NCBI GenBank assembly: GCA_951406725.2
Contig: OX597817.1
Coordinates: forward strand, 42,718,001 to 42,782,000
DNA length: 64,000 nucleotides
Reading direction: 5' to 3'
Source of the DNA: Octopus vulgaris
Lineage: Eukaryota
This document shows positions 20,301 to 64,000 of this stretch, one piece after another. A program made the translations under genes and the position numbers. Within the stretch, counting starts at the first letter, position 1; every line of letters begins with the position of its first letter. The notes under the pieces were generated by a model. The model was given only the letters and a program-made list of their open reading frames with translations. It did no database searches and was not told where the DNA came from.

Positions 20301-20339
<39 letters not shown>

Positions 20340-20778
20340 TAGATACATACACACACACATACATGCAGACATACATATACACATACACCGAGTAAAAAAT
20401 TACGATGAATCGGCCATACATACATACATACACACACACATACTTACACACACACACATACATAGATACATACACACACACACACATACATGCATACATA
20501 CATATACACATACACCGAGTAAAAAATCAGTTATCTCTCTCTTTCACACATTACTCTCTCTGTCTCTTCGCACACACTAACAGAAGCACTTCACTTACAC
20601 AACATACTGTCTGTCTCCCACACCCCATCAAACACACACAGGCCGACTTCAAAATGAAACCTTCTCGTCGTAAAATCGCTTCCTCTTAGTCTCTTTCGCT
20701 CTCATTACTTATGTAAAAAAATAAAAGTTTTTTACGGAAATCGACGGAAATCTGATCTACGACATACGAAACTTCGCC
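19972..20778. mobile_element. Foldback/MITE with ~220-bp TIRs, GG..CC ends and 8-bp TSD (Merlin-like)
   Basis: 20011-20206 is the near-perfect inverse of 20559-20754; ACTTATTT flanks both ends (19964-19971, 20779-20786); three internal repeats containing CACCGAGTAAAAAAT. Confidence 0.8.
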
Positions 20779-20793
20779 ACTTATTTATTTTCC

Positions 20794-20830
20794 CTAAAAT
20801 TTTCGTTGCGTCTAGCAACCTCTTCAGTAG
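20794..20830 (-). ncRNA. Hammerhead-like motif in a Penelope-type terminal repeat split by the MITE
   Basis: Minus strand CTA CTGAAGA G GTTGC TAGAC GCAAC GAAA ATTT TAG; host repeat (~19885-19971 plus 20779-20873) recurs at ~23665-23835 and ~61710. Confidence 0.55.
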
Positions 20831-23300: not shown

Positions 23301-24199
23301 ATGGTCAATGCCAGTGCCAGCTGACTGGTCCCGTGCTGGTGGCACATAAAAAGCACCATTTAAGCATGGTTGTTGCCAGTGCTGCCTGACTGGCTTCTGT
23401 GCCGGTGGCATGTAAAAAGCACTATTCAAGTGTAGTCGACACCAGTACTGCCTGACTGGCCCTCATGCCAGTGGCACATAAAAAACACCCACTACTCTCT
23501 CAGAGTGGTTGGCATTAGGAAAGGCATCAAGCTGTAGAAAGTTTGCCACATCAGATTGGAGCCTGGTACAGCCTTCTGGCTTGCCAGCCCTCAGTCAAAC
23601 CGTCCAACCCATGCCAGCATGGAAAGCTGACGTTAAACGACGATGATGATGATGGTGATGATTGTTGCATCTGAGGAGAGTCGTTCTGTTTTAATGCCTT
23701 ATTAATTAACATTCACCGGAGCAATTTCTATTCATTTACTTATTTATGTATTTTTTATATTTTTTGTTGCTTCTTGCAACCTCTTCTGTAGTTGTTGACT
23801 ATCCGTTATCGGAGCTGCGTTCTTTTTGTTTGTTTGTGTGAATGGATGTGCATCACCGTGCATGTGTATACACATATGTATGTATATATGTATGTATGTA
23901 TGTATGTATGCATGTGCGTGAATGCATATATATATGTGTGTGTATGTATATATATATGTATGTATGTGTGTGCTTACATTTGTATGTATTCTGCATATTC
24001 CTGTTTGTGTGTGTGCGTGTGTGTATTTGTGTGCGTACTTATGTCTCCTCGTGTGTGCGTGTTTGAGTGTCTATATGTATGGGTTTGCGTGACTGTACAT
24101 GCATCTGTAATGTATGGATGTGTATCTCCATATGTGTCCTTGTTGTGTGTGTGTATATGGTCATATGTTTCCATCTCCTTTTGTGTGTGTGTGTGTGCA

Positions 24200-30651: not shown

Positions 30652-30697
30652 CCACTACAATTGTTTCGTGTCTCTTCTAAGGACATTCATCAGGTGG
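30652..30697 (-). ncRNA. Minimal type I hammerhead ribozyme motif
   Basis: Minus strand CCAC CTGATGA A TGTC CTTAGAAGA GACA C GAAA CAATTG TA GTGG. Confidence 0.75.
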
Positions 30698-30757
30698 TCT
30701 TCAGATCTTCTATTCAATTTTAAGTTATGAAGTATAATTGAATAGAAGATCTGAAAA

Positions 30758-30803
30758 CCACCTGATGAATATCCTTAGAAGAGACACGAAACAATTGTAG
30801 TGG
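30758..30803 (+). ncRNA. Minimal type I hammerhead ribozyme motif (mirror arm, one stem II mismatch)
   Basis: CCAC CTGATGA A TATC CTTAGAAGA GACA C GAAA CAATTG TA GTGG. Confidence 0.7.
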
Positions 30804-31971: not shown

Positions 31972-32193
31972 TGCAAAAATAATTTTTGCTTTATTAGAGT
32001 GTTGCATTAAAAATTAGAAACGTAAAAATTTCGTTTTGAATTTTCCACGCCGGTTTTGTAGCAACGCGCACCCCCACCATATTACGACATAACCGTCACA
32101 TTGACTACGTTGGCAAATAACAGATCAGGTTAAAGAAGGGCTGCAATTTAATGCTGTTAGGAAAGTTCGTTCACTGCTGACATTTATTCTACA

Positions 32194-32558
32194 ATGCAGC
32201 TGAATAACTGGAAGGCAATCAGCGGTGTTATAGTACCTGCTGTTGTTTTATTCATTGCTGTTTATTACTATTACTATTTTAATAAACACAGCAGCGGAAT
32301 CAATGAAACTAAACACGGCCTCGATGAGATTCTTTCTGGTCTCCTCCGGGCTGAAAAAAAAGTTGATAATCTTGCAAGGCCTCGAGTGGCACTAGGACTT
32401 GGTGGATGTCTCGACTTGACCGTCAGTGCTTTAGCTTTATTCCAAAAACTGGGATTAGCTCCATCGAACAATTCTAATGTTCATCACGAATCAATCAGTT
32501 CTTTTGTTGAATTGGAAGAATTATTCACTTATTTCTTCACCTACGGAGCCGCAGCAGA
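32194..32558 (+). CDS. ADPGK: ADP-dependent glucokinase exon 1
   Basis: ATG, hydrophobic N-terminal anchor, RVALGLGGCLDL...HHESI...F.YFF.YGAAAE; donor GA|GTAAGT; 365 bp. Confidence 0.93.
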
Positions 32559-35500
32559 GTAAGTAATTTATATCATCAACTCATCATGTCTTATACCAAA
32601 AGTTTATTTCTCGAAGTTGTTGCATTTAGATTTAACATATTTATAAACGCGAAAAGTTAAGATGTTACCGTTTTGCTGACTTTACTGAAATTCGAATTTT
32701 AATGAAATTGAAACCTAATACCGACAGCTGCAAATGTTTACAAATGTTATGTTTACAAGCTGATTATGTTTGACCTTCGTGTTTTATAACCATATGACAG
32801 TAATTGGTAATATTATCAGTTTTTATTGTATAGAAAATTGGAAATTTGTGTTGAACTAGAAAATTAGAAATTTGTTGGGTAATTTGAAATACGATGTTTA
32901 TTCTCTTCGACTATTTTAAATAGCAAAGCAGAGATGTACCATACAAAACCAACGAAGCGTGAAGGGTTACGCATTTAATGTTGTCCATCTTTTCTCTAAA
33001 TGCTGTAGAGGCTAATTAAAATAATTGAATTCTAGTTATTATTTTATTTCCTGGGTAGACGTTTGGGCTCTTCTCTATAGAACGGGGAAAGTGGAGTTGT
33101 GAAACTTGTCTTTCCTTGAAGTGAAACTACTCTATCGGGAAGAGGGACAGGGACACGAGCTCAATTCACTAAAAGCTTGCTTTTATGATGACCCATTGAG
33201 AGAGCCCACATGTTTAGCCATCTGACCTGCTCAACAAAGGAAAACCCGACTCCGAGAAAAGTGTGATGGCCTGCGTCAGCAAAATTCAGTAAATAAAGTT
33301 CGTAAATTCAAGTTGCTATTGTTTAGACCTGACTGAGAAGACTTATGATCAAAGGCATTCCAGCTTAAATTGTCCCATCTTTTGTTTTTTTAAGACGATA
33401 AGGTTTTAAGGGGAGCGTTTGGTTATTGTTTCTGTTAGTTTGAGCGATCATGCAGAGATTCTGCTGTTGTTGATTCGATATATGTCATGATAGAGACCTA
33501 AACGTAACAAGACACTTTAGAGGAAAATGCTTCTCTTACGTGCTGAATAAACAAATTTTTTTATGTATAACCACATCTTCAAATCGTAAATCGCTGGACA
33601 ATATGCTGAAGTTTGTTTAGTCTACCCAAGCTGATTTATGTCAAATAACGATTCTCTCTCTCTCTCTCAACCGACAGGACAAACTACTGTAATTAAATAA
33701 GTTTGTTTAGTGTTAAGGGTAAGAGATTCCACAGATAAATGAATGAAACTATTGAGATGGACGTTCAGAGGACGACCCTATTAAATAAGGGTTCTTGTAG
33801 GCCCTCAACTGAGCGGGTAATGAAAAGCAAAAGACGTAAATAAAGCAAGGTATAGTGAATGCTTCCATAATAAAAATTTTATGGAAAGAATGCCGATTTT
33901 ATATATTACCGAAGGATCGCAAATTTCTAGGGTGAAATTGAATCTCTAAGTGTGTCAAATATTTTCATGGATGAGTAATTAACAGCAAATAAAGAAGGTA
34001 CAATTAACTTCCTTCAAAACTATGTTCCACTTTCAGTGGGGCAAACAGTTTGCATAAAGTCTGTTTCAAAGTTGTGTAGTCTCTCTCACTTGCTCAATCT
34101 ATGAGTAACAATAAATAAAAGGGAAGGGATATTCTTCAGAAAAAAAAAAGTTTTACTTCCGAGAGCGGTGTTCAGGGAACGAACTTTTAACGAACCGAAT
34201 TATCTCTGACAACAGCTTACATAAGTCCTCTCTTCCCTCCTCCCTCTCTCTGTCTTTGTATGTAAACACATATAGAGAGACACGCAAACGTGTGTATGTG
34301 TGTGTGTATTACATGTAATCATCATCATTTAACGTCTGTTGTTCATGCTAGCATGGGTTGGACACTTTGACCAGAGCTGATAAGCTGAGGGGTTGCATCA
34401 CACTCCAGTCTGGTTTGGCATGGTTTCTACGACTGGATGCTCTTCCTAACGCCAACCACTTTACAGAGTGTAGTGGGTACTTTTACGTATTATCACTCGT
34501 GCGCTTTTACGTGGTACTACCACGAGTGCTTTACACCACCAGAAGGACCAGACTTAACACTTCTGCTGTGGGTAGAAAAGGCAGTGAGGGAGTTAAGTAA
34601 CACCTGTATTGATGTAGTGAAGGTTGTGAAGAAATTCAACCCTTGATAATTGGAGTAACCCGACAGGAAATTTTCAATCCCGGTGAAGGATGAATGGACC
34701 CCATTTGTGGATATCTTTCTCAGAAAGTTCTGTCAGGCAAAAACCATAAGTAATATAAAGGGCAACAACTTCGTTTTTACTCAACTTTTCAGGAACCAGA
34801 AACCACTGGGTTTGTAGAAACGATACATGTGGTCATTGAGGAGAGTTAAATATCCAAAGTATGAAAATAAAGATTATGTAATTGTTTCAGGTGTTGGTAC
34901 CTGTGTCAGAGAGATTTCCTTTCTTGGAAACATTGTGACATATTTCTGAAAGCTCAGTCAATTTCTATAGAAAGAAAGATTAAAAAGTTCAGTAATGATA
35001 GGGACACGTTTAAGATGGTTTGACAGTAATGTATATAGAATGCCATCTGGTTCAGCCTTAGGTAATTAATGTCAGTGATCAAAATAAATAACGTTAATAA
35101 CCCACTCTAATTATACCATTATTATAAATGTGAAACATTTATATTGATGATGTATAATGGTGCTTCATGTGATGATTATAATATAGAACAGACCTGCTAT
35201 ATGCATCCCATCTATATCATCCATAGATTATTGACAAGAAAAATATCTAAAACTGTCAGTTTTAAATAGCCAATGTGTAGACTACTTCCAAGATTCTCAA
35301 GTTAAAGAAATAAGTTCCTACGTAGTATTTCTTTGCATGTATAAAAACTAAATATTTCAAAACTTCAAATTATTCAGGACAGATGAAAGTGTGTCACATT
35401 GTTAACTGAATAAATGAATTGAAATTTGTTGTTTAATGTGTAAGACTAAATTTTTCTTAGTAATTATTGAAGATTTCATCTTGTTAAAAAGTTTATTTTG

Positions 35501-38077
35501 AAACTTGAGTTATTCGTAAATTTTTACAAAAGTTGATTTGAAAATCTTTGGGTCTTTTCTTTTTTTTACATGGCAGCCTTTTGTTCGTATTAACCATTTT
35601 TAATTGATTTAAATGGAAATGTCTTAATATCTAAATTACTGTGAAGGTGACGAGCTGGCAGAATCATTAGCACTCTGGGCAAAATGCCCAGGGAAAATCT
35701 TTACGTTCTGAGTTCAAATTCCACCAAGGTCAGCTTTGCCTTTCATCCTTTCAGGGTTGATAGAATAGGTACCAGCTGAGCACTGGAGGCAAATTATCAA
35801 TTTTCCCCCACCCCTGAAATTGCTGGCCTTTTGCCAAAATTTGAAACTAATATTTAAGTTATTGTGTTTTGGCAGAAGACTAAGGCATTAGCTATATTGT
35901 AGTTGAATACTGTGCGTGTGCATTTATGTTTGTGTCTCCTTGTCTTGACATCACATGATAGCTATAAATAAGTGCCTTTGTCACACAAGCAATGTCATTC
36001 ATTTCCAATATGTCTGGCCATGGGAAATATTGCCTTGCCCAGAAACAAAGGACGTTTGGCAACAGAAAGGGCGTCTGGATGTTGAAAATCTGACCCATGC
36101 AGGCATGAAAAAGTGGATGTTAAAATGATTATGATGATGAATATTTTGGGGATACTATATAAATTGTTGCCTTTTGACATACTTTTAAAACAATTGGTAG
36201 GATTTTGTTCTTTAGCTTCTTTTGGCTGGTTGTTTGTCCTCCAAATTTACTTTTAATAACTGTTACTATTCATACACTGTTAAATTGTAATGCTCACTTC
36301 CGGAAAGTTGCTCTCAGATTATTTCTAAATTTGCTGTATTTTAAATAATGTAATAATGTAAAATACACAAACTTGTTTATTAAGAAAAAACTTTTCATTT
36401 ATAAAAAATATATATATGTGATGACTTTGGAAAGAGCTTTTTAGATAATAATAATAATAACCAGCTTCTGTGCCAGTGGCACATAAAAGGCACCATTCAA
36501 GTGTGATCGTTACCAGCGTCGCCTTAGTGGTACCTGTGCCGGTGGAATGTGTAAAAAGATTCAAGCAAGGTCATTGCCAGTATCGCCTGACTGCCCCCCC
36601 CCCCACCCCGTGGCATGTAAAAAGCACCCACTACACTCTCAGAGTGGTTGGCGTTAGGAAGGGCATCCAGCTGTAAAAACTCTGCCAAATCAAGATTGGA
36701 GCCTGGTGCAGCCATCTCGCTCGCCAGCCCTCAGTCAAAATCGTCCAACCCATGCTAGCATGGAAAGCGGACGTTAAATGATAATGATATATAATTGTTT
36801 TTTTTATTTATAAGTTTATTAAAAATTCTATAGAAACATTTTTATAAATAAAAGCATATGCATACTTCCAGCTTGGATCTGCATTTACCTAAGTTTGGTA
36901 ACAGAAACATTATGTTATTAGTTTACTTATTCTATATTATTGTCTCAAGAACTCTCAAGAAAGTTATAATGGTCGGTGCTTTGCCTTGTCTTATAGCATT
37001 AAGCAAATTAAAGATGAGATACATTGAAAACCACTAAATCACCTCAGGTAGGTTAGAGAATGCTATTACATCTGGTAACAAGATCAGGCATCTGTTTCCA
37101 ACAGCTAGGTGAATATAGTCAATATAAAATTAAGCTTTCTATTCACTGTCACTATGAAATACTTGAACTTAATACCTTATTAATAACTTATTGATTTTAT
37201 AATTTAATGAATAAATTTCTAAAAGTTAATGCTATACTTTTTCTATTTTGTGTGTCTGTTTTTAGTTAATTGTATAAATACATAAATCTACTACATTTTG
37301 AATTTGAGTTTTACCTATTTTTGTACCCACATAACCTTTTAGTGTTGGGTGCATAAAATGTAAACACTAACCTGATAAACTGCAATATTCATCCCAAGAT
37401 AGCATCTTTTATAGACAGTGTTAAAAATCATAGATATACATCAGTAGCTAGTGTTAACAGTAGTTTAACTACTGTGAATGACATTACAGAGACTGGGTTT
37501 TAATTCAGAAGTGTGTGTGTATTCTTTTATTTGTTTTGGTCATTTGACTGTGGCCATGCTGAAGCACTGCCTTTAGTTGAACAAATCGACCCCAGGACTT
37601 ATTCTTTGTAAACCTAGTACTTATTCTATCAGTCTCTTTGGCCAGACCACTAAGTTACAAGGATGTAAACACCAACATCAGTTGTCAAGTGTATGTATGA
37701 TGGATTCTCTCTCGTCATGAACAACTAATGAGTATTCAGTAAAAGCAAAGTGGTAATCACGTTCTATGAACACAAATGTGTCTCTTGAGCCTTGCTGGTA
37801 CCTTTGCAAACCTTTTGACAAAGGGAACAAGTTGAGGACTCAGTTTGCTCAAGTGCTTGTGGATCATTTACTATGTGTTTTCTTGAGTGGACGGCAAGGC
37901 CTGCTTTGCTCTGTGCTACAAAAGCCAATGATAGATATATGCACACTGACATTACCCATCCAGCAGAGCATACTGGCTTCATTTCTTTCAAGTCTTCACA
38001 TATCCTCAGTGGTCACAGATCAAGTCTCACTGCCATGTAGCATAATATACATGTAGCATAATACACACATATATGTG

Positions 38078-38410
38078 AAGGCGCATGACTCAGTGGTTAG
38101 AGCATCAAGCTTACAATTGTGAGGTAGTGAGTTCGATTCCCGGACCGTGTTGTGTATTGTGTTCTTGAGCAAGACACTTTATTTCACGTTGCTCCAGTTC
38201 ACTCAGCTGTAGGAATGAGTTGCGACATCACTAATGCCAAGCTGTATCAGCCCCTTTGCCTTTCCCTTGGATAACATTGGTGACATGGCGAGGCTGGTGT
38301 GGTGTGGGTGACTGCTGGTCTTCCATAAACAACCTTGCCCGGACTTGTGCCTCAGAGGGTAACTTTGTAGATGCAATCCCATGGTCATTCATGACTGAAG
38401 GGGGTCACCC
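38078..38410 (+). mobile_element. tRNA-derived SINE (second copy ~26862-27172)
   Basis: GACTCAGTGGTTAGAGC...GAGTTCGATTCCC A/B boxes then TGTTCTTGAGCAAGACACTT body. Confidence 0.75.
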
Positions 38411-38769
38411 CTATATATATATTTATATATCATCTTCATCATACATCTGTTTTCCTTGTTGGCATGAGTTGGACAGTTTGATTGAAGCTGTTCAGGTTCC
38501 ATGTCCGTTTTTACATGGTTTCTCTGGCTGGATACCCTTCCTAATGCCAACCGCTTTACAGAGTGTACTGGGTACTTTTACACAGCACTGGCACTGGTGC
38601 ATTTACATGATATCAGTATGGATGCTTTTTATATGACACCAGGACCCATGTGCCCACAAGGTTGGGAATGCCCAGCTGGAGAGGAATGCAGGGGACAGTC
38701 TGTATGCAAAGACAATCATGCTTTTACTTAGCTTGACGTATCTTTTGAAGCACAACAAACTACCAGGAT

Positions 38770-38964
38770 TATTATTACTATTCAGGTCACTACCTGGAAT
38801 TGAACTTGGAATCTTGGGGTTAGTAGCCAGCGCTCTTAACCACTATGCCCACGGGCATATGAGAACCTCATTCCTAACCACTCTGGCATAGTGGTTAAGA
38901 GCACGGGCTATTAATCCCAAGATTCCGAGTTCGATTCCAGAAAGCGACCTGAATAATAATAATA
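38770..38964. mobile_element. Head-to-head pair of short tRNA-like SINEs with (AAT)n tails
   Basis: GGCATAGTGGTTAAGAGC...GAGTTCGATTCCAG...CCTGAATAATAAT at ~38885-38964 and its inverse at ~38770-38850. Confidence 0.7.
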
Positions 38965-39577
38965 AACTACCAAGAGTCGTGGTCTCCTGTTGTTCCCTCT
39001 GTGAGTCTCAATGTCTGTAGATCCTTTCTCATCATATCATCCCATGTTTTCCTGGATCTACCCCTTCCATGTATTCCCTCTATTCTTGATGTAACTGTCT
39101 TCATTCATATGCATTACATGGCCATACCAATGCACACAACATCTGATGCCTCTTATACCCAGTTTTTCTTTCAAATCACTTAAACTCTGTCACATATGTA
39201 CACTGACATTACCCATCCAGCAGAGCATACTGGCTTCATTTCTTTCAAGCCTTCACATATCCCCAGTAGCCATAGCCCATGTCTCACTGCCATGTAGCAT
39301 AATATGCATATAAAATATATAATACAGGAAGATGGACTGAACAGGCTTTAATTCAAATCACAACAATTGTTTCTGTGCATTAGTAACAGACAGCTGTTAG
39401 TTGCTGTGTATTCCTGCTCTATGATAGCATTTGGTAACTGATATCTGTAGAGAAGCTTTGAAATGTATGTTATAAGGTGATATTATACATATATAAATAT
39501 GTGTGTGTGTTAAATTAAATGAAGCAACAAAACCAATACTGTGTGGAATTTTCAGGACATTTATAAAAAGAAAGTTA

Positions 39578-39625
39578 GTCTTACAGCTGTTTATGGGATG
39601 TTAGGGATATCACTTCATCAGAGAC
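39578..39625 (-). ncRNA. Decayed hammerhead motif (GAAA to TAAA)
   Basis: Minus strand GTCT CTGATGA AGTGAT...ATCCCA TAAA CAGCTG TA AGAC. Confidence 0.55.
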
Positions 39626-41113
39626 GATGTGAAATGGTTAAATAGAGGGAAATAGTAGAGTTCAATGTAAGGAGTTATTTTGGAAAAGGATGGATATAGG
39701 AAGTATAAAGAGAAATAAGAGAATAAAAATACAAGTGAAAATATATGTAGAATGTTACAGTTGCATCCTACAATATTTCCCATATTTTAGCTTTGAGTAA
39801 CACAAATGGGATTTGGATGTATAAAGTCAAAAAAGAAATTATAAGGAACATATATATAAAAATAATCCCTTCTGCTATAAACACAAGTTGTGAAATGTTG
39901 GGTGGGTGTGGCTAGTTAATCACATCAACCCCAGTGTTCAACTGGTGTTTATTTTATCAACTCCAAAAGGATGAAGGACAAAATTGACCTCAGTTTTGGT
40001 AGAATTCAAACTCAGAATGTAAAGACCGGTGAAATGCTGTTTAACATTTTATTTGGTGTGTTAACAATTCTGCCAACTTGTTGCTGTAATATATATGAAA
40101 ATAAGGGAATGATTGGTTCATTAATATTTAAAACAAAAATAATAGGATAATTCTCAATAAAAATAATGTAAGTAAAGATTTTCAGCAAACACATTGATGT
40201 TTCTGCTACATTTTTGAGGACATAAGATGTTATAGCAAACTTCCTGATAGAAAGGAATTCCTCTTGAAGGTTTGTTCAATTAATTAGTATAATTCCTAAT
40301 GTGCAATATATGGAGGAACAGGTACAGATGTGATATTCAAACTGAATTCAAGATTATTTCATGGAAATAAAAGCAGCGGGTGCAGACTTAAATATTTAAG
40401 GAACTCTTTTGCCTTAATGGACTAATCCATGCTAACCATATTTTTCTACATCATTTCTGTAAATTGGAAGGCAGTTTATAACTGTAGCTGGAACATGTAG
40501 TTCACCATTATTACACATTCAGTTAATACCATCACTGGCCATTGTCTGCAAAACTACTTTATTTTATTAAATTGTCATAAAGACAGTACAAAGGTTAGGT
40601 AGTTTTGTGGGCTGGACAAGACATTAATGAAATGAATGATAATGATACAAGAATGATATGGATGAGAGAAGACAGAAAGCACCTGCCGACCCTCTGCTTC
40701 TCTATAACATTGTTCTTTCACAAACATACATTGAGGTATTAAACCTCTTACATTTTTCAATATTTAAACATATATTGGGGTATTAAACCTCTTACAATTT
40801 TTCAACGCATACAATTTATTTGGACTAAAAAGTCCATTACAAATTTAACACATACTTGAGGCAAGTATGTGTATACTTGATGTAACTGTCTTCATTCATA
40901 TGCATTACATGGCCATACCAATGCACACAACATCTGATGCCTCTTATACCCAGTTTTTCTTTCAAATCACTTAAACTCTGTCACATATGTACACTGACAT
41001 TACCCATCCAGCAGAGCATACTGGCTTCATTTCTTTCAAGCCTTCACTTATACTAATCCCCGCTTAACTCTATTTTGTAATACCATCTAAAAGGCACTGG
41101 TATTGACGCCATG

Positions 41114-41456
41114 TACTGTATTTGATGGCCTATAAGACGCACCTTTTTTACCCAAAAATGGCTTTAAAAATCCCCCTGTATCCAATGCACTCAATGTAGG
41201 CTCAAATCTCACTCAAAACAATATGTATGTTTACAAAACGTGTGCTGCCATCTGTTGGTGAATAATCACCTATGGTATGTTTATATCGAATGTGGATGCA
41301 ATAAATTGCTTATAATTACTAGTAATAACATAAAGTTATACAGGTAAGTGGAGGAATTAAAACATTATTTGAGTGGTAATTTATTTTACAAAAGTATAGC
41401 CGAGGCTAGGGTGTGTCCTATGCACTTATGTGTCTTTTCAACCATCGAAAACAGTA
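41114..41456. mobile_element. Tigger/pogo-type MITE
   Basis: TACTGTATTTGATGG..TATAAGACGCACC versus GTGTCTTTTCAACCATCGAAAACAGTA; TA-bounded imperfect TIRs. Confidence 0.65.
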
Positions 41457-42428
41457 AAAAGCATAGGTGCTGGTGTCATATAAAAAGCACCCAATACACA
41501 CTAAAAAGTGGTTGGCATTAGGAAGGGCATCCAACTGTAAAAACCAAGTGAAAACAAACTATGGAACCTGGTACAGTTCCTGGCTTTGCCATCTCCTGTC
41601 AAACTATTCAGCCCGTGCCAGCATGGAAAATGGACATTAAATAAAGATGAGGAATATTATATTGCATTCTAAAATTGAATACAGAGCTAAAGGTAATTAA
41701 TTCCTTCAATGTATTTTTATAAAATATATTAATTTTTAGATGATTTCTACTTCATACAATCATAGAAAATTGAACAACTTATACATGGAGACCTGATTTG
41801 AAAGACATAAATGAAATGAGCTTCAATGTATCAACTAACAACTTGCTGTTTTAAATCTGACTAAAAGACTTCAGGCACAGTCATGCCTTTGGATGTCAGA
41901 AGTGAAAGTAGAAAAATCTGACGTCAGACGTCAACTTCGTGTATTTACATCGTCATGTTTAAACTTTCGTTTATTTACGTACCACCATGCTTTAATTTAC
42001 GCCGTTTATTTACGTACCACCACGCTAGGTTTATAAAAGCTTGAAGTTAATTTTTAAAATAAATGTGATACTTATTCTGTTTAAACTTTATAAATAAATA
42101 TATTCTTGCATTATTCATTATTGTTTTTAAAAAAGAAATCACACCAAATCTGCACAAATGAACCCCCATGACCATCACCGCGAGACTAGAAGTTAAGCCT
42201 TAAGTTTGAAATAAATTTTTTTTTTTCCTTTTGATGCTCTTCTGAATACATTTAATAGAATATTGTCAGTCCTGTTTGAGCAGACTAAACATTTCTACTC
42301 TATTAACTTACTTCACATACATTCTTTTTAAGACATTTTCTCTTTTCTTAGCGCATTGGCTTTTGTAAAATTTATTTTTCTTTGACTTCCTTATCTAATT
42401 TAATATGATGCTTTATTCTGTTGTCCAG

Positions 42429-42619
42429 GCGCTATGTCCATAACTCTTCATTGTTTGATGTATTATCGTCAAATGCAGACAATTTAAAGGACAAACAATG
42501 GACTCTCGGTGGCAATGCACCAGTGATGGCCAATCGATTATACCATGAAGGAGCAGATGTGCTTTTGGGTACATCGTGGAGTGAAAAACTGCTTAATTTG
42601 ATTCCAGAAGGAATCAAAG
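42429..42619 (+). CDS. ADPGK: ADPGK exon 2
   Basis: CCAG| ... |GTAAGT, 191 bp; RYVHN...WTLGGNAPVMANRL. Confidence 0.93.
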
Positions 42620-45600
42620 GTAAGTTGCTTATACAAATGATTTGGCTCCTTTTCTTAATATTTTATCAAGTGGACCTCATGGAGGCAATGACCAAAACCT
42701 TTGGCATTATGTCATGCTTGAGAAGAAAACCCATCAAGCTGAGCAAAATCACAGTTGTGGCAGATACCGGTGTCACACAAATGGCACCCATGCCGGTGAC
42801 ACATCAATGCATCCGTTACACTCTCATTTCTTTACTGTCCACAAGGGGCTACACACAGAGGGGACAAACAAGGACAAAGAAACGGATTAAGGCAATTACA
42901 TTGACCCCAGTGTGTAACTGGTACTTATTTAATCGACCCCGAAAGAATGAAAAGCAAAGTCGACCTCGGTGGAACATAACAGCAGACGAAATACTGCTAT
43001 GCACTTCATCCGGCATGCTAACATATCTGCTAGCTTGCCTTCTCAGGGTGGTTGGCATTAGGAAGGGCATCCAGCCATAGAAAACCATGCCAAATCAGAC
43101 TGCATTATGGCACAGCCTTCCAGCATACCAGCCCAGTCAAACCCTCCAACCCATGCCAGCATGGACAACGAATGCTAAATGATGATGATGATGATGTTCC
43201 ATACTTTTAGGACACAATAAAAGGAATACTAAACTGACATATACTGAAGAACATAGAAAATTATATTGGAATGTAATTAGTATAGTTAATTTTCATGGGA
43301 TAGCCATGTATCTCCTCTACAGCAAGACACTTGTTTCTGTCCTTCTATCATGCTTTAACCTCTTATCACAGGCACAAAGTCACCTCCTTCACTACTACAC
43401 CCCCTCAGTTGAGGTGATTTTGTCTTGCAAGTTATTTGGTGATCTCATTAATGCCAGTGCCACATAAAAAGCATACAGTACACTCTGTAAAGTGGTTGAT
43501 GTTAAGAAGGCCATCCAACTGTAGAAAACTTGCCAATGCAAACATTTCAGTTTAGCTCATTCTTCTGGCTTGCTAACTTCTGTCAATATATCCAACACAT
43601 GCCTACAATAGAAAATGGATGTGAAATGATGCTGCTGCTGTTGATGGTGATGATTTAACTTTGATTTTCAACTGTATGGACCATTGAAAGAGTTGAAAGT
43701 TTAGGACAAATTTGATATAATGAAATTAGCTTTTTAAGACTGAGTGCCAATTCAGCTTTCATAATAGTTAGTAGGAATTGCAAAGAACATCAATTTGGAA
43801 TTCTTGTGAAGGTATTTCTTTCTTGATTAGAAAAGCAATAGATCTACCTATAAAACAATGCTGCATCATATATTTGATTCCTTCTGAGTCATTCTTTTCT
43901 ACTCTAGGCATAAGGCCCAGAATTTTGGGGGAGGGGGCCAGTTGATTAGATCGACCCCAGTATGCAACTGGTACTTAATTTATCGACTCCGAAAGGATGA
44001 AAGCTGAAGTCGACCTCAGCAGAATTTGAACTCAGAACATAAAGACAGACAAAATACCTCTAAGCATTTCGCCTGACATACTAACGTTTCTGCCAGCTTG
44101 CCGCCTTCCTTCTGAGTCATTGTGCCATATCCATTTGTCAGATGTTGTCACAGATTTTGAAATCAATATTTTAAGTTTTGTATTTTGAAGCTTTTCTTTA
44201 ACTTAATACTTTATATCTTGCTGTGTCAATGAGTAATCAGTGTTACCAGTGCTTCATTCTCACTCATGCTTAATGTTAGACTCTCCAAATTATTAATATT
44301 TTATTCATTGAATACTGACTTAAGCCTTGAGGTGGGATTTATATGAATGTATTCTCAATTCTTTGAGTACTAACTGAAACACTTTTCAAGCACTTGTCAT
44401 TTGTCTGGACCACCACACTATTAGTAAATATAACTGCAAGAATCTACTGATCATCATCATTTGACATCCATTGTCCATGCTGGCATGGGTTGGATGGTTT
44501 GACCAGAGCTGGCAAGCTCTGGTGAGCTACTCCAGACTCCAGTCTGATTTGGCATGGTTTCTACAGTTGGATGCCCTTCCATATGCCAACCACTTTACAG
44601 AGTGTATTGGGTGCTTTTACGTGGCACTGCACAAGCACTTTTACATGGTACTGCCACAAGTGCTTTTCACCACCAGAGGGACAAGTCTTAACACTTCTGC
44701 TGGAGAGTACGAGTCTTCTTGAGGACAGCAAGGTGCCAGGCATCTCCGTCTTTTGTCATCTCACCTGAAAGGTTCAGCGTCCGCGCTTGTTCTTTAGTAC
44801 TTCATTCCATGTCTTCCTGGGTCTCCCACTTCCACGTCTTCCATCTATTTTGAGAGATCAGCACTTCTTTATGAAGCTGTCGGCATCCATCTTATTTCTT
44901 TACTGCCCACAAGGAGCTACATACAAAGGGGGCAAACAAGGGCAAATGGATTATATCGACCTCAGAGTGTAACTGGTACTTATTTAATCGACCCCGAAAG
45001 GATGAAAGGCAAAGTCGGCCTCGGCGGAATTTGAACTCAGAACATAAAGACAGACGAAATAGCGCTGAGCATTTCGCCCAGCGTGCTAACGTTTCTGCCA
45101 GATCGCCGCCTTCATTCCATTCAGTCTTTCTGACACAGACTTGTCAGGAGACAATGAAGCAAATTCTGGCTGTCACACTTTAAACATGACGAAACCAGCA
45201 CAGTCTTCTTTCTTGCACACAGCAACTAGCTCCTCTTAATGTTCAACTAAACCAAAATATAAACGTTACTTATTTTCAGGAAACTCCACTCCATATTTGT
45301 TTTATAAACACATAGTTCTGGAGTCAATCCCACTGCGCAGTACCTTAAAAAAGTGCTTTCTACCATCACTTCAAGTTGACCAATGCCTTGTGAGTGAAAT
45401 TTAGTAAACGAAAACTGTGAAGAAGCCCATCACCTATGTAAATATACACGGGCTCATGCCTGTGTGTATGTGTATATCAGCAACGTATTGGCACACGCAC
45501 TGATAAACCAGTGCAGCAGGCAAAAATACTTGACGCTATTTTTCTTTGTGAGTTACGTCCCTTTACACTAAAGCCAGCAGCCATTTGCTAACTCCAGATC

Positions 45601-46156
45601 AATAAAATTACTACACTTATTACTGAGGTCGATATGATCATCGGAAACCTTTGAAGCCCGTGCCCCAGCTTAGCTGTCCAAAATTTGAAACCAGTAAAAG
45701 CCGTTTAATCAATTAATTTGCTTAATTAAAAAGGTGTGAAAGAATTCCACACTTCTGAAACTTTTCCTGTTCATGTATTTTTATCAAATATGAATCTGTC
45801 TGTTGAAGCTCCATATTAACTGCAATAATCTGTCTCAATTCACTAACCCCTTTCTATTGGAGAGAAACCTCATAGACTCAGACATAATACTCAAAGAGGT
45901 TTAAGACTGATTGTGCAATATTAACATTGCTATGCAAATAAGGTAGCTGTAAATGTTTTCGTGTTCTTTTGATAAACAATCTATAGACCAAATCTGGTTT
46001 ATCAAGTCACATTTTTTACCAAAATTTCTCCACATTAACAATTAGTCATGCATGTTATAATTCATTAATAATAAAGCAAAAATTACTAAACATTAATGAA
46101 ATCTATTTCTTTTTATATATAAACTGTATGTATTCTATAATAATTGTTTTCAACAG

Positions 46157-46253
46157 TTGTTGGTCCTAAACTGTCACATGATGATATTCACTTAATTTTG
46201 GAATACAACAAAGGAGAACAATGGGGAAAGAAAGTTTCACCTCGAGCTAATCG
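46157..46253 (+). CDS. ADPGK: ADPGK exon 3 (not in the ORF track)
   Basis: AACAG| ... |GTAAGA, 97 bp; VGPKLSHDDIHLILEYNKGEQWGKKVSPRANR. Confidence 0.92.
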
Positions 46254-47361
46254 GTAAGACTAACATTCATAACTAAATAAATACATTCAGTCTTAGATTA
46301 CAGTTAAAAATTTTATTTCTTGATCAGAGTGTGTTTGTAAAATAGTAATTGAAAATTCATCAAAATTACAACTTGTTTTATTTACAGGATTATAAATGTT
46401 TCATTTACAGGATGGAATGGAATCTATGGGCTTATAAGTTGTGAGATTCCTAGCTTTTATTTTACTACAGGTTTTTGAACTAAACTGAATGGGAGAGAAG
46501 ATAGCTCTGCTGCTAGCAGGCTCGTGGCTATGCTTGATATGCAGCTAACGAGTACATAGAAATTTCATATAATGTACCTAAGAGGTGTAGTGGGATTACA
46601 GGCAAGCCCACAGGGAAAGAAGACTTCATATGTAGCAGCAGATACATTGAGGAAGTTAACAGTAAAAATACAAAATAGATTACTTTTGTGGCAGTGTTTT
46701 ATGGCTAGATGCCCTTCCTTTCACCATTCCAGTTGCCTTTTACAGCATACAGAGGCATAGTATACCTATCCTGTAACTGGGACACACATGGTATATGGGA
46801 TTTTATATATACAATACTCAAATTATTTCTAATCCTTATACATGCCAGTGGGCAGACACATGTCAACCTGAATAATTTTTAATTAGAATTCAGGGAAAGA
46901 AGTTTCTTTTAGCTCTTTAGTACTATTAAAAACATGGCATTTCAGTTTGTTTTGGTAGCTTCTAGTAATTATAGTGGATAAAAACAGAAAGATTATCCAA
47001 TTTAAGGAAATACTTTTCTTTTTACTTTACAAATATTGTGTTTTATATTTTGGCTTGGATGCTCAGGTTTCAATTTGGACTAATGTTGTATATAACTTCC
47101 ATATTTTAAAGCCAAAAGGACACATAGGCATATTGGATGCACCCTAATTTCAGCAGTGCATATTCAGGGGGAAATGGTTTTAATGCATTAAAGCTCATGA
47201 GAAATTCAACTTCATTTATAGGACCCAGGGTGATTTTTTTTAAAAATAAAAGTGTCTTATATGCTATCAAATATGATATCTAATTTGTATGAAAAGCTTT
47301 TTGTATCCAGGATATGTGACTTAATAATGTTAAATATTAAAAATTATTTACTGTTTTCTAG

Positions 47362-47498
47362 ATTTATAATTCACAATGATAAAAGTAACCCTCAACTTAC
47401 ATCAATGGAAATCTTTTCAAAAGAATTGCTTAAATTTAAACCTTCGTTGTTAATTCTTGGTGGTCTTCAAATGATGGATAATTTTCCTTTTGAACCTG
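47362..47498 (+). CDS. ADPGK: ADPGK exon 4
   Basis: TTCTAG| ... |GTAAGA, 137 bp; FIIHNDKSNP...KPSLLILGGLQMMDNFPF. Confidence 0.92.
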
Positions 47499-49212
47499 GT
47501 AAGAAATTTCTATAATTCTAAGAAAAAAGTTTCTTTTGATTAATTTTTATATTTACATTCAACATGTATTCCTAATATATTTACATGTACACCATGTTTC
47601 ATTAACAAAATTAAGTAATTGCTTCATGAAAGAAATTCTTTCGAATATGATTATAAGTAAGAACTTCTTTTTGGCATCTAGAGATTTTAGATGTCAATTT
47701 GTCAGAATAGAACAAATATTTGGAAGGTAGCTTAGTAAAATGACACCTTTGAAAACTGCACAGGAAAATCAATCTTCAGCAACAGGAAAGAGAAACCTAG
47801 TTTTAAGGGAATTTTTTTGAAAATCTACATCATCATCATCATTTAACGTCCACTTTCCATGCTAGCATGGGTTGGACAGTTTAACTGAGGGCTGGCGAAC
47901 CAGATGGCTACACCAGGCTCCAATCTTGATCTGGCAGAGTTTCTACAGCTGGATACCCTTCCTAACGCCAACCACTCCAAAAGTGTGGTGGGTGCTTTTA
48001 CAAGCCACTGGCATGGGGGTCAGTCAGGCAGTACTGGTAACGACCTCACTCAAATCTTTTTACACATGCCACCGGCACAGTAAGGCAATGCTGGTAATGA
48101 TCATGCTCGAATGGTGCCTTTTACATACCACCAGCACGGAAGCCAGTTAGCCGCTCTGGCAATGATCACGCTCGGATGGTGCTCTTAGCACTCTACTTGC
48201 ACAGGGCACAAGTGCCAGTAAGGCGACACTGGTAACGATCACCCTCAAATGGTGCCTTTTATGCGCCACTGGCATGGAAGCCGGTTAGGCACTCTGTCAA
48301 CGATCACACTCGTATGGTGCTCTTCACACTCCACTAGCACGGGTGCCAGTCATCGAATTTCACTTTGATTTCACTTGCCTCATACAGATACTTAAAATCA
48401 GTTGAGCACTTTACATAAACTTCATTAGAGATTTAGTATGCATCTTTGTAGGTACTTAAAAATGTGAAATTAATTGCCCATAACTCATATGATGTGAGAA
48501 CACAAATCATATACTTCTATAGAATGAAATGATTTTGATAATAAGCCATGTTGGGTAACAATAAACTATGAATAAATGTCTTTCATCAAGTCATAGTTAA
48601 CCAAACATACATGAAGATTAAATAGAAGTAGCTTGGAATGATAAAATTTTCATAATGAAGAAATAAAATTTATCTAAGATATTATAGTGTTTATTGTAAT
48701 TGGGTCCAGTATACAACTGACTGAAAACTTTAATTGATTAATAGTCTGCAACTGTAGAAATGGTTTAATTTTAGCCATATGATATCATTATTGATGTTTA
48801 TTTTATAAAGATTAGAGAATAAATGATTAACTGTAACTGGATATATATATTTGTTGACAAAAGTTACCTATTGTTCATTCTATTTTTGTGTGACTTTTTG
48901 CTACATTTTCACCTTTTTTAAAGCAAATGTCTTTATGGCTCAACCATTATTGCAAATTTTATTTGATACACATTTTCCTGCTCTGTACATTGAAGTCAAC
49001 AGAAAAAAAACTAGAAAACTTAAGGGATACAATGCAACTTGCGTTGTATAATGTGAATGCTATGAACTACTTTTCCAAAAACTATTGTATATATTTACTC
49101 TTTGAAATATTGAATTTATTATTTAATAAATCTTCAGATTCATGTTGTTTAAGTGATATCTAAATATGCTTTAAGCTATTTTTAAAATTCATCATTTTTT
49201 TTCTATTTTCAG

Positions 49213-49880
49213 ATCAAAGACAACTTAAGTTATCAGAACTGGAACAAATGCTGTTATCTGTTTCACCTGAAACCAAAATTCATTTTGAATTTGCATCTTT
49301 CGCAAATTCTGATCTGTTGAGTGAAATAATAAACAAAGTTGTCATACATAGTGATTCACTTGGTATGAATGAACAGGAGCTGCCAAATTTAGTGACTGCT
49401 CTTAATGATGGCAGTGTCACATTAATATCTGATGCCTATCCAAGAATTGCGACTGTTTTAGATCAGATGCGATTTGTATACAGCCATCTTCAAAACAGAA
49501 CAAATAACATAAGTAAGCGTAAAGTCACAAGACTGCATGTACATACACTTGCCTTTCAAGCTATTTTAACTGACAAGTCTTCAACATGGAAACATTCAAT
49601 GTCAGCCACAGCTAAAGCTGCATTAACTGCTCACCGTCATGTTTGTGGATCAGTTGATATCGATACCTTAAAAGCCAGGCTCATCATGGATGATTCCTTC
49701 TCGACAAGTCAAGTTGAGTCTGGTCAACGAATCCCACTCCAGAAGGACCGTCCTGTCTCATGCTGGAACGAAGATGATTATGAAATATGTGTTGCCCCTG
49801 TTCTTGTATGCACCCAGATTCTCAAAACTGTTGGGGGAGGAGATAACATTTCCTCTGCAGGTCTTGTTTTACAGATTTAA
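49213..49880 (+). CDS. ADPGK: ADPGK exon 5 (terminal)
   Basis: TTTCAG|, 668 bp to TAA; IHFEFAS, DSLGMNEQEL, RLHVHTL, TVGGGDNIS (ribokinase-fold GxGD); the five exons total 1458 nt = 485 aa with consistent phases. Confidence 0.95.
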
Positions 49881-60336: not shown

Positions 60337-61570
60337 TATTGCACAACACCCCTTTTCAAGAATAGATAACTCTGTGATTTGACAAATTTACTTTGATAAA
60401 ATAAGTACTGGGGTTAATTGAAAATCTAAAATCCTTGAATGCAGTGTCCCAGCATGGCCACAGTTCAGTGTCTGAAGCTGTTGAAAGAAAGAATTACAAA
60501 AGTGGTATGAAAAGCAAGTGAAAATACAATTTTTTTCTTTAGCAATTATCCCTTAAAATCAGGTGGTTTCCCCACCACCACAACCACCCTCTATTTTCAT
60601 TAATCAGCTTTGAGATCATGTGATGGTCCTGACATGATATATTTCTACACACATTTACATACATTCCCTTCCTCCTCGCATAATTTAATATATAAGCACT
60701 GCTGTTTATTGCTGGTTACTATGTAAACAAAACTGTCATCTGACTGCAGCCATAAACATAATTCACACCACAGCATGCAATTGATTGTACTAAAACTGGC
60801 GTTAACACTTTAATTGGATAATTTAGAAAAATGACACAGTTGTTTTTATTTAGCCAGAGGTTAGCTTTAACCAAGCAGATCTATATTCAAAAGTAGTCCA
60901 CCTGTGACCACCTCAACTATTCAAGCATGATGCCTGCAGGAGTACATTATTTATTGTGTCCTTCTAATCTAAGATGGTATTATGTAATTTGAAGAGAGAT
61001 TTGGCTACTATCCCTAGCATGGTGTGGTTTGACTGTTGCTTGTGGAGTTGATCAAAGGCTCCCTCATTGGCATAGATAATGTAGAGATAGTAACTTCCTG
61101 TTGAGCTCAATGCAAACCACTCCTCTTTAATTTCTAGTTACAACTTGGTTAGAATTCATCATTTAGATATCATTACTAATTATAATTAATTAAAATTTGG
61201 TTTATTAAACCAAGTATTACTACACCAACTATTTTATGATTTATTAAGTTTTCTCGCAGCAGGTGCCCTTGGGTAATTATCTCCTATCATTTCTCAAAGT
61301 CTTTTCTACCATAGGCACAAGGTTTCTACAGCTCAATATCCTCCCTAATGCCAACCACTTTACAGAGTGGACTGGGTGCTTTTTACATGGCACCAGCACC
61401 AGTAATTTTTATGTAGCATCTGCACCTGTGCTTTTTACATGGCACCTTGGTCTTACATATTTGTTGCATTTTAATACAGCATGTCCATAACAGATGATAT
61501 TATAGGATGAACACTGCAGCAAAAGGCCTATCAACGATGTATATACATAAAGTATGATACACAAATGAAT

Positions 61571-62990
61571 ATTCTAATTTAATACTGCCTCAATTGCATA
61601 TAACAGATTTTTAATTAATTCTAATCAACAAAAATGTCAAAACTGTATCACTTGTCTTTTTATCTTTTTTAGAATTAGTAATTTAAATTATTGTTCTCAT
61701 CACTGAAAGTGTATTCTGTTGTGTCTGGGGAGAGTCATTTTCTTTTTGTGCCTTATATAATTTAATACACTCACTGGTAAAATTTCCACTTATTTCTTAT
61801 TTTTATTTTCCTAAAATTTTCGTTACATCTTGCAACCTTTTCAATAGTCATAAAAATAAAAATAAGAAATAAGTGGAAATTTTACCAGTGAGTGTATTAA
61901 ATTTTATAAGGCACAAAAAGAAAATTACTCTCCCCAGACACAACAGAATATGCTTCAACACATGAACTCATATAAAAAATCTTGGAAACCAAATCCAAAA
62001 GGAAAACTGAAAGTGTAATTTCATTTTTATTTAAATTTCTTGTTTTTTTGTTTGTTTGTGTTTCCTTCTTTCTGTATCAAGTTAGCTAACATCCATTCAA
62101 CTTATAAGGTTTCAAGCCAATATTTATCCCTTGATAATTTTCCTTGTAATTTTTTTACCTGTTATGTTACTAGCTATGGTGTTTGGTTATCTCCCTTTAC
62201 ATTCTATTTCTAGTCCAGCCTAGGTTCACCTTCTCAGTTGACAAAGAAGTATTGACATCAATATAACTTACACCTCAGAAGATTCTAATTTAATACTGCC
62301 TCAATTGCATATAACAGATTTTTAATTAATTCTAATCAACAAAAATGTCAAAACTGTATCACTTGTCTTTTTATCTTTTTTAGAATTAGTAATTTAAATT
62401 ATTGTTCTCATCACTGAAAGTGTATTCTGTTGTGTCTGGGGAGAGTCATTTTCTTTTTGTGCCTTATATAATTTAATACACTCACTGGTAAAATTTCCAC
62501 TTATTTCTTATTTTTATTTTCCTAAAATTTTCGTTACATCTTGCAACCTTTTCAATAGTCATAAAAATAAAAATAAGAAATAAGTGGAAATTTTACTGGT
62601 GAGTGTGTTAAATTATAAGGCACAAAAAGAAAATTACTCTCCCCAGACACAACAGAATATGCTTCAACACATGAACTCATATAAAGAATCTTGGAAACCA
62701 AATCCAAAAGGAAAACTGAAAGTGTAATTTCATTTTTATTTAAATTTCTTGTTTTTTTGTTTGTTTGTGTTTTCTTCTTTCTGTATCAAGTTAGCTAACA
62801 TCCATTCAACTTATAAGGTTTCAAGCCAATATTTATCCCTTGATAATTTTCCTTGTAATTTTTTTACCTGTTATGTTACTAGCTATGGTGTTTGGTTATC
62901 TCCCTTTACATTCTATTTCTAGTCCAGCCTAGGTTCACCTTCTCAGTTGACAAAGAAGTATTGACATCAATATAACTTACACCTCAGAAG
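61571..62990 (+). repeat. Direct tandem duplication of ~710 bp
   Basis: ATTCTAATTTAATACTGCC at 61571 and 62282; both units end CACCTCAGAAG; only a few differences. Confidence 0.95.
61712..61951. mobile_element. Palindromic Penelope-like repeat with hammerhead-like motif in the spacer (61811-61847 -, duplicated at 62522-62558)
   Basis: ~100-bp arms; spacer reads on the minus strand CTA TTGAAAA G GTTGC AAGAT GTAAC GAAA ATTT TAG. Confidence 0.65.
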
Positions 62991-63242
62991 ATAGCGCATG
63001 CCAAAATCCATTGATGGAAACTAATAAAAGAATCACCAGCATTTCCTCTAAGCTTTATACTTGTTTGTGTGTGTGTGTATACACATTTTACAACAAGAAA
63101 TGGGGAAAAACGTGCACACAGGATGTTAGGATGGATTTTTTTAATTGAAGAAATTTGAACATGGATACACACATATTTTGCAAACAAAGACAAAATTTGC
63201 CCACACGACAAATTTCTGCACACATTCAATGCAAAAAATTAA

Positions 63243-63590
63243 AAGGAATATTGCTCTTGTGAATTACGCAGTGCATTCCAGAAGTTTTCAGACTTTTTAG
63301 GAGCGACAGTTATAACTCTCCTAGATTAGAAGGAATATATGCTCTTATAAATTATGCAGTGCATTCCAGAAGTTTTAGACTTTTTAAGAGCGACAGTTAT
63401 AACTCTCCTAGATTAAAAGGAATATTGCTCTTGTGAATTATGCAGTGTATTCCAGAAGTTTTCAGACTTTTTAGGAGCGACAGTTATAACTCTCCTAGAT
63501 TAGAAGGAATATATGCTCTTACAAATTATGCAGTGCATTCCAGAAGTTTTCAGACTTTTTAAGAGTGACAGTTAAAACTGTCCTAGATTA
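63243..63590 (+). repeat. 87-bp tandem repeat x4 (further partial units at ~63875-64000)
   Basis: AAGGAATA at 63243, 63330, 63417 and 63504. Confidence 0.93.
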
Positions 63591-63719: not shown

Positions 63720-63878
63720 AGGACATGAAGACGATTTGAAAGCTTGTGTTAAACTGGGCAAAATACCATAGAAGCTTATGAAATGCTTCAGACTACTTAT
63801 GGGTTAACTTTTTCGCAGGCATAAGAAGTTCAAGGGCAGCAGAAAAAAGGTAGAAGATGGTGAGAGATGTGGGAGATT
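63720..63878 (+). pseudogene. Mariner transposase N-terminal remnant
   Basis: CVKLGK, EAYEMLQTTYG and KKFKGSRKKVEDGERCGR in broken frames. Confidence 0.7.
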
Positions 63879-64000
63879 AGAAGGAATATTGCTCTTGTAA
63901 ATTATGCAGTGCATTCCAGAAGTTTTCAGACTTTTTAGGAGCAACAGAAGGAATATTGCTCTAGTGAATTATGCAGTGCATTCCAGAAGTTTTCAGACTT

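What the first reader, a model, noticed from the sequence alone, without database searches (positions are those of the whole stretch)
61811..61847. C3-G8 to U3-A8 compensatory change in the hammerhead core within one repeat family
Seen: homologous repeats read CTA-CTGAAGA-GGTTGC-n5-GCAAC-GAAA-ATTTTAG at 20794-20830 (-) but CTA-TTGAAAA-GGTTGC-n5-GTAAC-GAAA-ATTTTAG here and at 62522-62558. The only two core differences are positions 3 and 8. Established: C3-G8 is a Watson-Crick tertiary pair in the active hammerhead, and compensatory swaps can retain activity. Inference: this is selected covariation that CUGANGA-only searches would miss. Caveats: stem I is only 3 bp, the cleavage register (AAUU then U) is uncertain, and the two U-A copies are one duplication.
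Basis: partly seen in the sequence, partly recalled or inferred. Interest (0 to 1): 0.75.

Follow-up and report, generated by a model that had tools for sequence, protein, structure and literature searches.

The report
Known hammerhead variant in Penelope retroelement

Summary
The letters are as reported (minus strand). The motif is the minimal hammerhead of a Penelope-like retrotransposon: 23 of 30 loci anchored on its GIY-YIG endonuclease carry it 180-740 nt downstream. Genome-wide, one pattern family gives U3-A8 2,870, C3-A8 about 124, U3-G8 71 and C3-G8 only 7. Mixed states outnumber C3-G8 about 28 to 1, and coupling of positions 3 and 8 is near zero (phi 0.04). No C-G subfamily was found. 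Instead an old subfamily amplified with a U3-G8 wobble (16 of 23 copies sampled without regard to the core). U3-A8 is already described in Schistosoma Penelope-like elements, and a U3-G8 example stands in the same paper's supplement. Many short copies begin about 10 nt upstream of the motif, often with an extra G (14 of 29), so they were likely copied from capped, uncut RNA. This fits in vitro data that cleavage is dispensable for insertion. Cleavage was not tested. Verdict: real motif, known variant, covariation claim not supported within this family. The scan noted this variant before, on other DNA of this and other genomes.

The parts
61811..61847 (-). Minimal type I hammerhead motif, U3-A8 core (U3 at 61844, A8 at 61839, G12 at 61821, predicted cut between 61814 and 61813); stem II has one G-U
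61712..61849 (-). Short pLTR copy of the young (Y) subfamily: starts 2 nt before stem I, ends at about +134, the family's commonest 3' end
61853..62005 (+). Inverted, 5'-truncated partner pLTR copy lacking the motif (starts about 4 nt past the predicted cut, runs to the long 3' end); forms a 103-bp hairpin with the minus copy
62522..62558 (-). Identical U3-A8 motif in the second unit of a local tandem duplication
61532..62992 (.). Two-unit tandem duplication (period about 711 nt, 97.2% identical) holding the hairpin insertion plus flanking DNA
20794..20830 (-). C3-G8 copy of the same family, of older type (flanks closest to O/M copies); one of only 7 exact-pattern C3-G8 copies in the genome
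19876..19975 (-). Downstream remainder of the pLTR of the 20794 copy, cut off from it by an insertion of about 800 nt; best matches are M-type U3-A8 copies
23755..23791 (-). Third, decayed copy of the old (O) subfamily: C3-G8 but U4>A and G12>A

Best explanation
The motif sits in the pseudo-LTR of a high-copy Penelope-like retrotransposon with a C-terminal GIY-YIG endonuclease, has the layout of the known minimal hammerhead, and carries U3-A8 as its family-wide core, while the rare C3-G8 copies are likely point mutants of U3 ancestors rather than a covarying sister subfamily. Shown: position in the element, copy counts, three flank-defined subfamilies (O with mostly U3-G8; M and Y with U3-A8), and copy ends. 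Inferred: a promoter in the pLTR likely starts a capped RNA about 10 nt before stem I; the element's reverse transcriptase likely starts at one of two internal sites (about +134 and +190-197) and copies back to the cap, giving short and often inverted head-to-head insertions such as this one. Because these copies keep the whole motif, their templates were likely uncut. The motif would cleave only as a dimer through the AAUU palindrome, weakly or with protein help. Selection on the 3-8 pair is therefore likely loose: position 8 changed once between G and A with U3 held, direction not determined.
For: Element: GIY-YIG Pfam E=1.1e-6, above cut-off; a 665-aa RT+EN frame with YVDD and a CX4CxxC linker ends about 670 nt before the motif; 23 of 30 EN-anchored loci have the motif, 21 U3-A8, 1 C3-A8, 1 deletion. 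Counts: 2,870 / about 124 / 71 / 7; C3-G8 expected under independence 3.1, odds ratio 2.3, phi 0.038. O subfamily anchored on its downstream flank: U3-G8 16, C3-G8 4, other 3 of 23 covering the core, of 30 loci. No flank marker separates 8 C-G from 25 U-G O-type copies; C3-A8 copies are scattered over the Y tree. C3 is about 4% in Y (3.7% diverged) and 6 of 52 in the G8 copies of the AAGAA-loop list (O 9.1% diverged), about what scaling by age predicts (my arithmetic). Ends: 13 of 30 downstream-anchored copies start at -13..0, 2 of 30 at +33; G before the -10 start in 14 of 29, p=6e-4; 3' ends pile at about +134 and +190-197. Literature: PMC4209133 (U3-A8, low activity, dimers), PMC11167929 (HHR mutants still insert; uncut RNA is the main substrate).
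Against: C3 is in excess: 4 of 23 in O against 4 of 176 T>C changes at other T sites (p=0.007; the 176 is my hand tally), and the genome-wide odds ratio is nominally significant (p=0.047). A small, older C3-G8 source is therefore not excluded. T>C at position 3 is also about 2.5-fold above position 4 in the A8 background (about 124 against 49), and this is unexplained. Exact patterns miss older relatives with changed stems. The motif changed less than its flanks between O and Y (2 of 37 against 33 of 143, p=0.018), which suggests some constraint, but those copies were chosen by the motif, so the test is biased. No cleavage data. The cap reading rests on one base at 29 junctions that include one duplicated pair and one microsatellite flank.
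Confidence: 0.75

Rival explanations
1. Stepwise compensatory evolution under selection for cleavage: an ancestral C3-G8 core went through a tolerated U3-G8 wobble to U3-A8, and the window's C-G copies are relics of the first stage.
For: C3 excess in O; both old-type copies in the window are C3-G8; the dominant final state is a Watson-Crick pair; C3-G8 is the consensus of PLE hammerheads, and homologous S. japonicum (C-G) and S. mansoni (U-A) motifs stand side by side in the supplement of PMC4209133.
Against: [quoted passage not shown]
Confidence: 0.18
2. One reading: two subfamilies, C3-G8 and U3-A8, kept by selection, with mixed states rare.
For: The three window copies alone look that way; U3-A8 dominates.
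Against: C3-G8 7 against about 195 mixed; old subfamily mostly U3-G8; phi 0.038.
Confidence: 0.04
3. [quoted passage not shown]
For: Templates appear uncut; a U3-G8 subfamily amplified; no stem II compensatory subfamily (7 hits, 2 compensatory).
Against: All other catalytic positions (G5, A6, A9, G12-A14, A15.1-U16.1) are the majority letter in O and Y samples taken without regard to the core; published minimal hammerheads of this layout cleave weakly as dimers (PMC4209133). This rival overlaps the best explanation and differs only in whether any cleavage remains.
Confidence: 0.2

Closest known systems
U3-A8 minimal hammerheads of Cercyon Penelope-like elements, Schistosoma mansoni (Cervera and De la Pena 2014, PMC4209133; read: main text parts 1-2 of 4, supplement parts 1-2 of 3)
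   Same: UUGAAAA first box, extra base between A9 and G10.1, G10.1-C11.1, palindromic four-base stem III, U17, 3-bp helix I, place in the pLTR after the RT-EN frame, over a thousand mostly single copies (about 1,300 hits there). Fig. S3 also lists a U3-G8 motif (Saccoglossus 1) and an A-A-U-U/U17 motif with 3-bp helix I (Crassostrea).
   Different: Different host and element (linker CX4CxxC, Neptune/Nematis-like by motif; clade not tested by tree); the extra base is G, where the published consensus has H (one listed row has G); here subfamily-level counts show a U3-G8 subfamily and no C3-G8 subfamily.
Natural U3-A8 hammerheads (Perreault et al. 2011, PMC3088659; read: section 8 and passages)
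   Same: C3-G8 covaries to U3-A8 in several natural ribozymes; the paper says such swaps were active in vitro.
   Different: Those are not a within-family census of a retroelement's minimal motif.
PAc Poseidon element of Anolis (Frangieh et al. 2024, PMC11167929; read: parts 1-2 of 4)
   Same: Hammerhead in the pLTR; two internal RT start sites giving a tail; uncut RNA is the main insertion substrate; no RNA-seq ends at the cut.
   Different: PAc keeps C3-G8, and single C3G or G8C mutants kill cleavage; here the two 3' ends are about 60 nt apart, against a 30-40 nt tail there.
Inverted, 5'-truncated pLTR insertions of endonuclease-bearing PLEs (Craig et al. 2021, PMC8557442; read: passages)
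   Same: Head-to-head inverted copy at the 5' end, optional tail.
   Different: None of substance.

Membership tests
Minimal type I hammerhead of metazoan PLEs (PMC4209133) | Catalytic boxes C/U3-UGAN-G/A8-A9 and G12-A13-A14-A15.1 | tested here: met
   UUGAAAA and GAAA; the U3-A8 form is in the paper
Minimal type I hammerhead of metazoan PLEs (PMC4209133) | One unpaired base between A9 and G10.1, and G10.1-C11.1 closing helix II | tested here: met
   G at 61837, G61836-C61822; helix II forms in the predicted fold
Minimal type I hammerhead of metazoan PLEs (PMC4209133) | Palindromic A15.1-N-N-U16.1, H17, short helix I | tested here: met
   AAUU, U17, CUA/UAG; same columns as the Crassostrea row
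Minimal type I hammerhead of metazoan PLEs (PMC4209133) | Lies in the pLTR downstream of the RT-EN frame | tested here: met
   23 of 30 EN-anchored loci; L192
Minimal type I hammerhead of metazoan PLEs (PMC4209133) | Compensatory changes in helix II among families | tested here: inconclusive
   One pair tested: 7 double-changed hits, 2 compensatory, no subfamily; stems are invariant between O and Y majorities
Minimal type I hammerhead of metazoan PLEs (PMC4209133) | Self-cleavage (as a dimer) | not testable with these tools
   No assay; the RNA-seq lay cannot show it
   7 C-G, about 124 C-A, 71 U-G, 2,870 U-A; O subfamily 16 of 23 U-G
Endonuclease-bearing Penelope-like elements | Single frame with RT and C-terminal GIY-YIG | tested here: met
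   665-aa frame; RVT_1 only E=0.008, below cut-off; GIY-YIG E=1.1e-6, above cut-off, on L128
Endonuclease-bearing Penelope-like elements | pLTR with inverted 5'-truncated partners and optional tail | tested here: met
   Inverted upstream partners at about 53 of 133 anchored loci; two 3'-end peaks
Neptune/Nematis clades of PLEs | CX2-5CxxC linker between RT and EN | tested here: met
   CX4CxxC in the L192 frame, definition from PMC8557442
Neptune/Nematis clades of PLEs | Placement in an RT phylogeny | not tested
   No reference set was fetched
Animal non-LTR retrozymes | Head-to-tail non-coding monomers, each with a hammerhead | tested here: not met
   The motif belongs to an RT-EN element; the 711-nt duplication extends beyond the element's mapped ends

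The most novel reading that the evidence does not exclude
This family gives genomic evidence that Penelope hammerheads need not cut for the element to spread: a subfamily amplified with a U3-G8 core, a state of low activity in a canonical hammerhead, and the commonest short insertions are full-length cDNAs of a capped, uncut RNA that begins 10 nt before the ribozyme. The O and Y cores (U-G against U-A on otherwise identical stems) form a natural series for asking what PLE hammerheads are for.
Probability: 0.4. Interest if true: 0.42.

Novelty: new member of a known kind. Interest (0 to 1): 0.17.

Why it matters
As a covariation discovery it matters little: the swap is published for the same class of element, and within this family positions 3 and 8 hardly covary. 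What remains useful is practical and mechanistic. A CUGANGA-only search would miss about 99% of this family's roughly 3,000 motifs. The U3-G8 subfamily and the capped, uncut templates bear on the open question of whether PLE hammerheads act in retrotransposition at all (PMC8557442 calls their function unclear; PMC11167929 found them dispensable in vitro).

Tried and rejected
Rfam: no hammerhead family among 101 hits at E<=1; minimal motifs are not expected to score, so no weight given. Sequencing runs: no RNA holder listed on record. Lay of two raw RNA runs and two contig sets of related organisms: reads cover the motif on both strands, with no place where many molecules begin or end; the libraries look unstranded and are not end-preserving, so this is no evidence on cleavage. 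Positions 3 and 8 were not among the 40 variant rows shown (178 not shown), so nothing firm on other species. Stem II covariation: one pair tested, no compensatory subfamily. Pile-up of genomic 5' ends at the predicted cut: 2 of 30 within one base, 1 of 30 in O, 4 inverted partners at +34..+40 among about 53; not above scatter, a minority class is not excluded. Motif-versus-flank conservation was discounted as biased by how copies were chosen. Ordering O before M was dropped. No full-length copy with both pLTRs was found in 7 extended loci. Retrozyme reading rejected (see membership). Papers not held: Przybilski and Hammann 2007, Nelson and Uhlenbeck 2008, Scott 2013, Martick and Scott 2006, so I have no read rate for U3-G8 or U3-A8 from them. 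Literature searches: (octopus + Penelope + hammerhead) listed nothing on this family; one search listed nothing on cap-derived G at PLE junctions. The bioRxiv retrozyme preprint was seen only through one passage and its supplements are closed; Repbase/Dfam entries could not be checked.

Full report
Observation. The three sequences are present as described, all on the minus strand. The copies at 61811-61847 and 62522-62558 are identical and belong to one tandem duplication of period about 711 nt, 97.2% identical. They differ from the copy at 20794-20830 at 5 of 37 places: 3, 8, two in loop II and one in stem II; four are transitions. In hammerhead numbering the finding reads CUA (helix I), U3-U-G-A-A-A8-A9, an extra G, a 5-bp helix II closed by G10.1-C11.1 with one G-U, G12-A13-A14, the palindrome A15.1-A-U-U16.1, U17 and UAG. 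The predicted fold has helices I and II (-5.7 kcal/mol, z -2.3). The motif lies in the loop of a 103-bp inverted repeat; in the predicted fold helix I stacks on that long duplex. A third, decayed copy is at 23755-23791.

What carries it. The window is G000:C4:42718001-42782000 of a 2.8-Gb animal genome (earlier AI notes call it octopus-like, which I did not test). A 32-letter pattern finds 2,773 copies against 0 for the control. Upstream of long copies is a GIY-YIG endonuclease (Pfam E=1.1e-6, above cut-off). Anchoring on that protein instead of the motif, 23 of the 30 best loci have the motif 180-740 nt downstream: 21 U3-A8, 1 C3-A8, 1 with a deletion (six of these loci are one cluster on C1 and may not be independent). 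L192 has a 665-aa frame with an RT region (YVDD; RVT_1 E=0.008, below cut-off), a CX4CxxC linker and the endonuclease. This is a Penelope-like element with a C-terminal endonuclease; the linker is the one described for Neptune and Nematis (PMC8557442 passages). I did not place it on a tree.

The covariation test. With one pattern family (CTA-3-TGAN-8-AGGTTGC-N5-GYAAC-GAAA): U3-A8 2,870; non-U3 with A8 151, of which the 100 listed are 82 C, 11 A, 7 G by my count, so about 124 C3-A8; U3 with non-A8 96, all listed, 71 G, 15 U, 10 C; C3-G8 7. Independence predicts 3.1 C3-G8; the odds ratio is 2.3 (p=0.047) and phi is 0.038. Mixed states outnumber C3-G8 about 28 to 1. About 38 of the 71 U3-G8 copies share a loop (AAGAA) seen in 2 of 100 listed U3-A8 copies, which points to a subfamily. 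A tree of downstream flanks only (97 of 135 distinct copies; 38 unclassifiable ones left out) separates O (G8), M and Y (A8). Sampling O by its downstream flank, 23 of 30 loci cover the core: U3-G8 16, C3-G8 4, A3-G8 1, U3-C8 1, U3-A8 1. In the AAGAA-loop list the 52 G8 copies among 100 listed (of 131) are 45 U3, 6 C3, 1 A3 (my count). No flank column separates 8 C-G from 25 U-G O-type copies. Of the 7 exact C3-G8 copies, three have the O loop, three have young-type loops and flanks, and the window's 20794 copy has older flanks whose downstream piece best matches U3-A8 M copies.

Results against this reading. C3 is more common than background: 4 of 23 in O against 4 of 176 at other T sites (p=0.007), and both old-type copies in the window are C3-G8. 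But the excess also holds where C3 makes a mismatch (about 124 C3-A8 against 49 U4>C), and scaling Y's 4% by divergence (Y 3.7%, O 9.1%) predicts about 10% in O. A small ancestral C3-G8 source cannot be excluded. O and M are of similar age, so the direction of the G8/A8 change is open. Exact patterns miss older relatives with altered stems.

How it likely works. Shown: 3' ends of 133 anchored copies cluster at about +134 and +190-197, and inverted partners abut the 5' end at about 53 loci. Among 30 young copies chosen by their downstream flank, 13 start at -13..0, 3 run further upstream, 14 start inside or after the motif, and 2 of these lie within one base of the predicted cut. Copies truncated at -10 carry a G at the junction in 14 of 29 cases, where the element has C and flanks have 13% G (p=6e-4 against 20%). 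Inferred: a pLTR promoter starts a capped RNA at about -10, RT starts at one of two internal sites and copies to the cap (reading an extra G as a copied cap is from my recall of retroelement work, not from a call), and the templates were uncut. This matches PAc, where RT starts internally at two sites, hammerhead mutants still insert, and cleavage needs the protein (PMC11167929). Published minimal hammerheads are inactive as monomers and weak as dimers (PMC4209133). In a canonical hammerhead screen only the G-C swap rescued the 3-8 pair and other single and double mutants were low (PMC9901934 section 7), while PMC3088659 says U3-A8 had been shown active in vitro. A motif under loose constraint, in which U3-G8 and U3-A8 subfamilies can both amplify, fits all of this best.

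What is known. Cervera and De la Pena 2014 describe U3-A8 instead of C3-G8 in Schistosoma mansoni Cercyon elements, about 1,300 hits. Their Fig. S3 lists homologous S. mansoni U-A and S. japonicum C-G motifs, a Saccoglossus U3-G8 motif, and a Crassostrea motif with the same AAUU/U17 register and 3-bp helix I. Perreault 2011 reports natural U3-A8. Searches listed no paper on this family. Earlier AI notes of this scan reached the same known-variant verdict on other DNA of this and other genomes; I had the paper before reading them.

Verdict. Observation confirmed; interpretation partly supported. A new member of a known kind, interest 0.17. The more interesting residue is the U3-G8 subfamily together with capped, uncut templates (probability 0.4, interest 0.42 if true).

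Noticed in passing
window 19976-20790: An insertion of about 800 nt with 206-nt inverted arms (20001-20206 / 20559-20764, 98% complementary) around CA-rich tandem repeats splits the 20794 pLTR copy.
   Followed up: partly
window 11825-12298 and 19580-19957 (-): Exons of a metallo-beta-lactamase-fold gene (Pfam Lactamase_B E=9.5e-6; LACTB2-like by recall). The 20794 and 23755 motifs lie upstream on the same strand.
   Followed up: partly
window 32161-49880 (+): ADP-dependent glucokinase-like gene (last exon Pfam ADP_PFK_GK E=2e-74); the finding lies about 12 kb downstream on the opposite strand.
   Followed up: partly
window 61700-61960 and 62410-62670 (-): The tandem duplication puts two identical motifs 711 nt apart on one strand, each with helix I stacked on a 103-bp duplex; if transcribed, they could pair through their AAUU palindromes, a natural dimer substrate.
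   Followed up: no
genome-wide, position 3 of the motif: T>C at position 3 is about 2.5 times as common as at position 4 even when it breaks the pair (about 124 against 49); cause unexplained.
   Followed up: partly
pLTR, about +75 and +36 from the motif start: A GTGAGT donor-like site downstream of the motif and a TTTTAG/G acceptor-like site at its 3' edge are kept in O and Y; PLEs are known to carry pLTR introns. No joint supported splicing there.
   Followed up: no
window 3192-5957 and 2541-2672 / 6485-6615: A 2.8-kb TA array flanked by inverted sequence.
   Followed up: no
window 30669-30786: A near-perfect hairpin of about 115 nt (miRNA-like Rfam score below gathering), probably a small foldback element.
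   Followed up: no
window 63238-63590 and 63874-64000: An 87-bp tandem repeat, four copies plus further pieces at the window end.
   Followed up: no
G000:C1:206.65-206.73 Mb (L163-L168): Six copies of the element's endonuclease and pLTR spaced about 15-18 kb apart, probably a segmental array.
   Followed up: no
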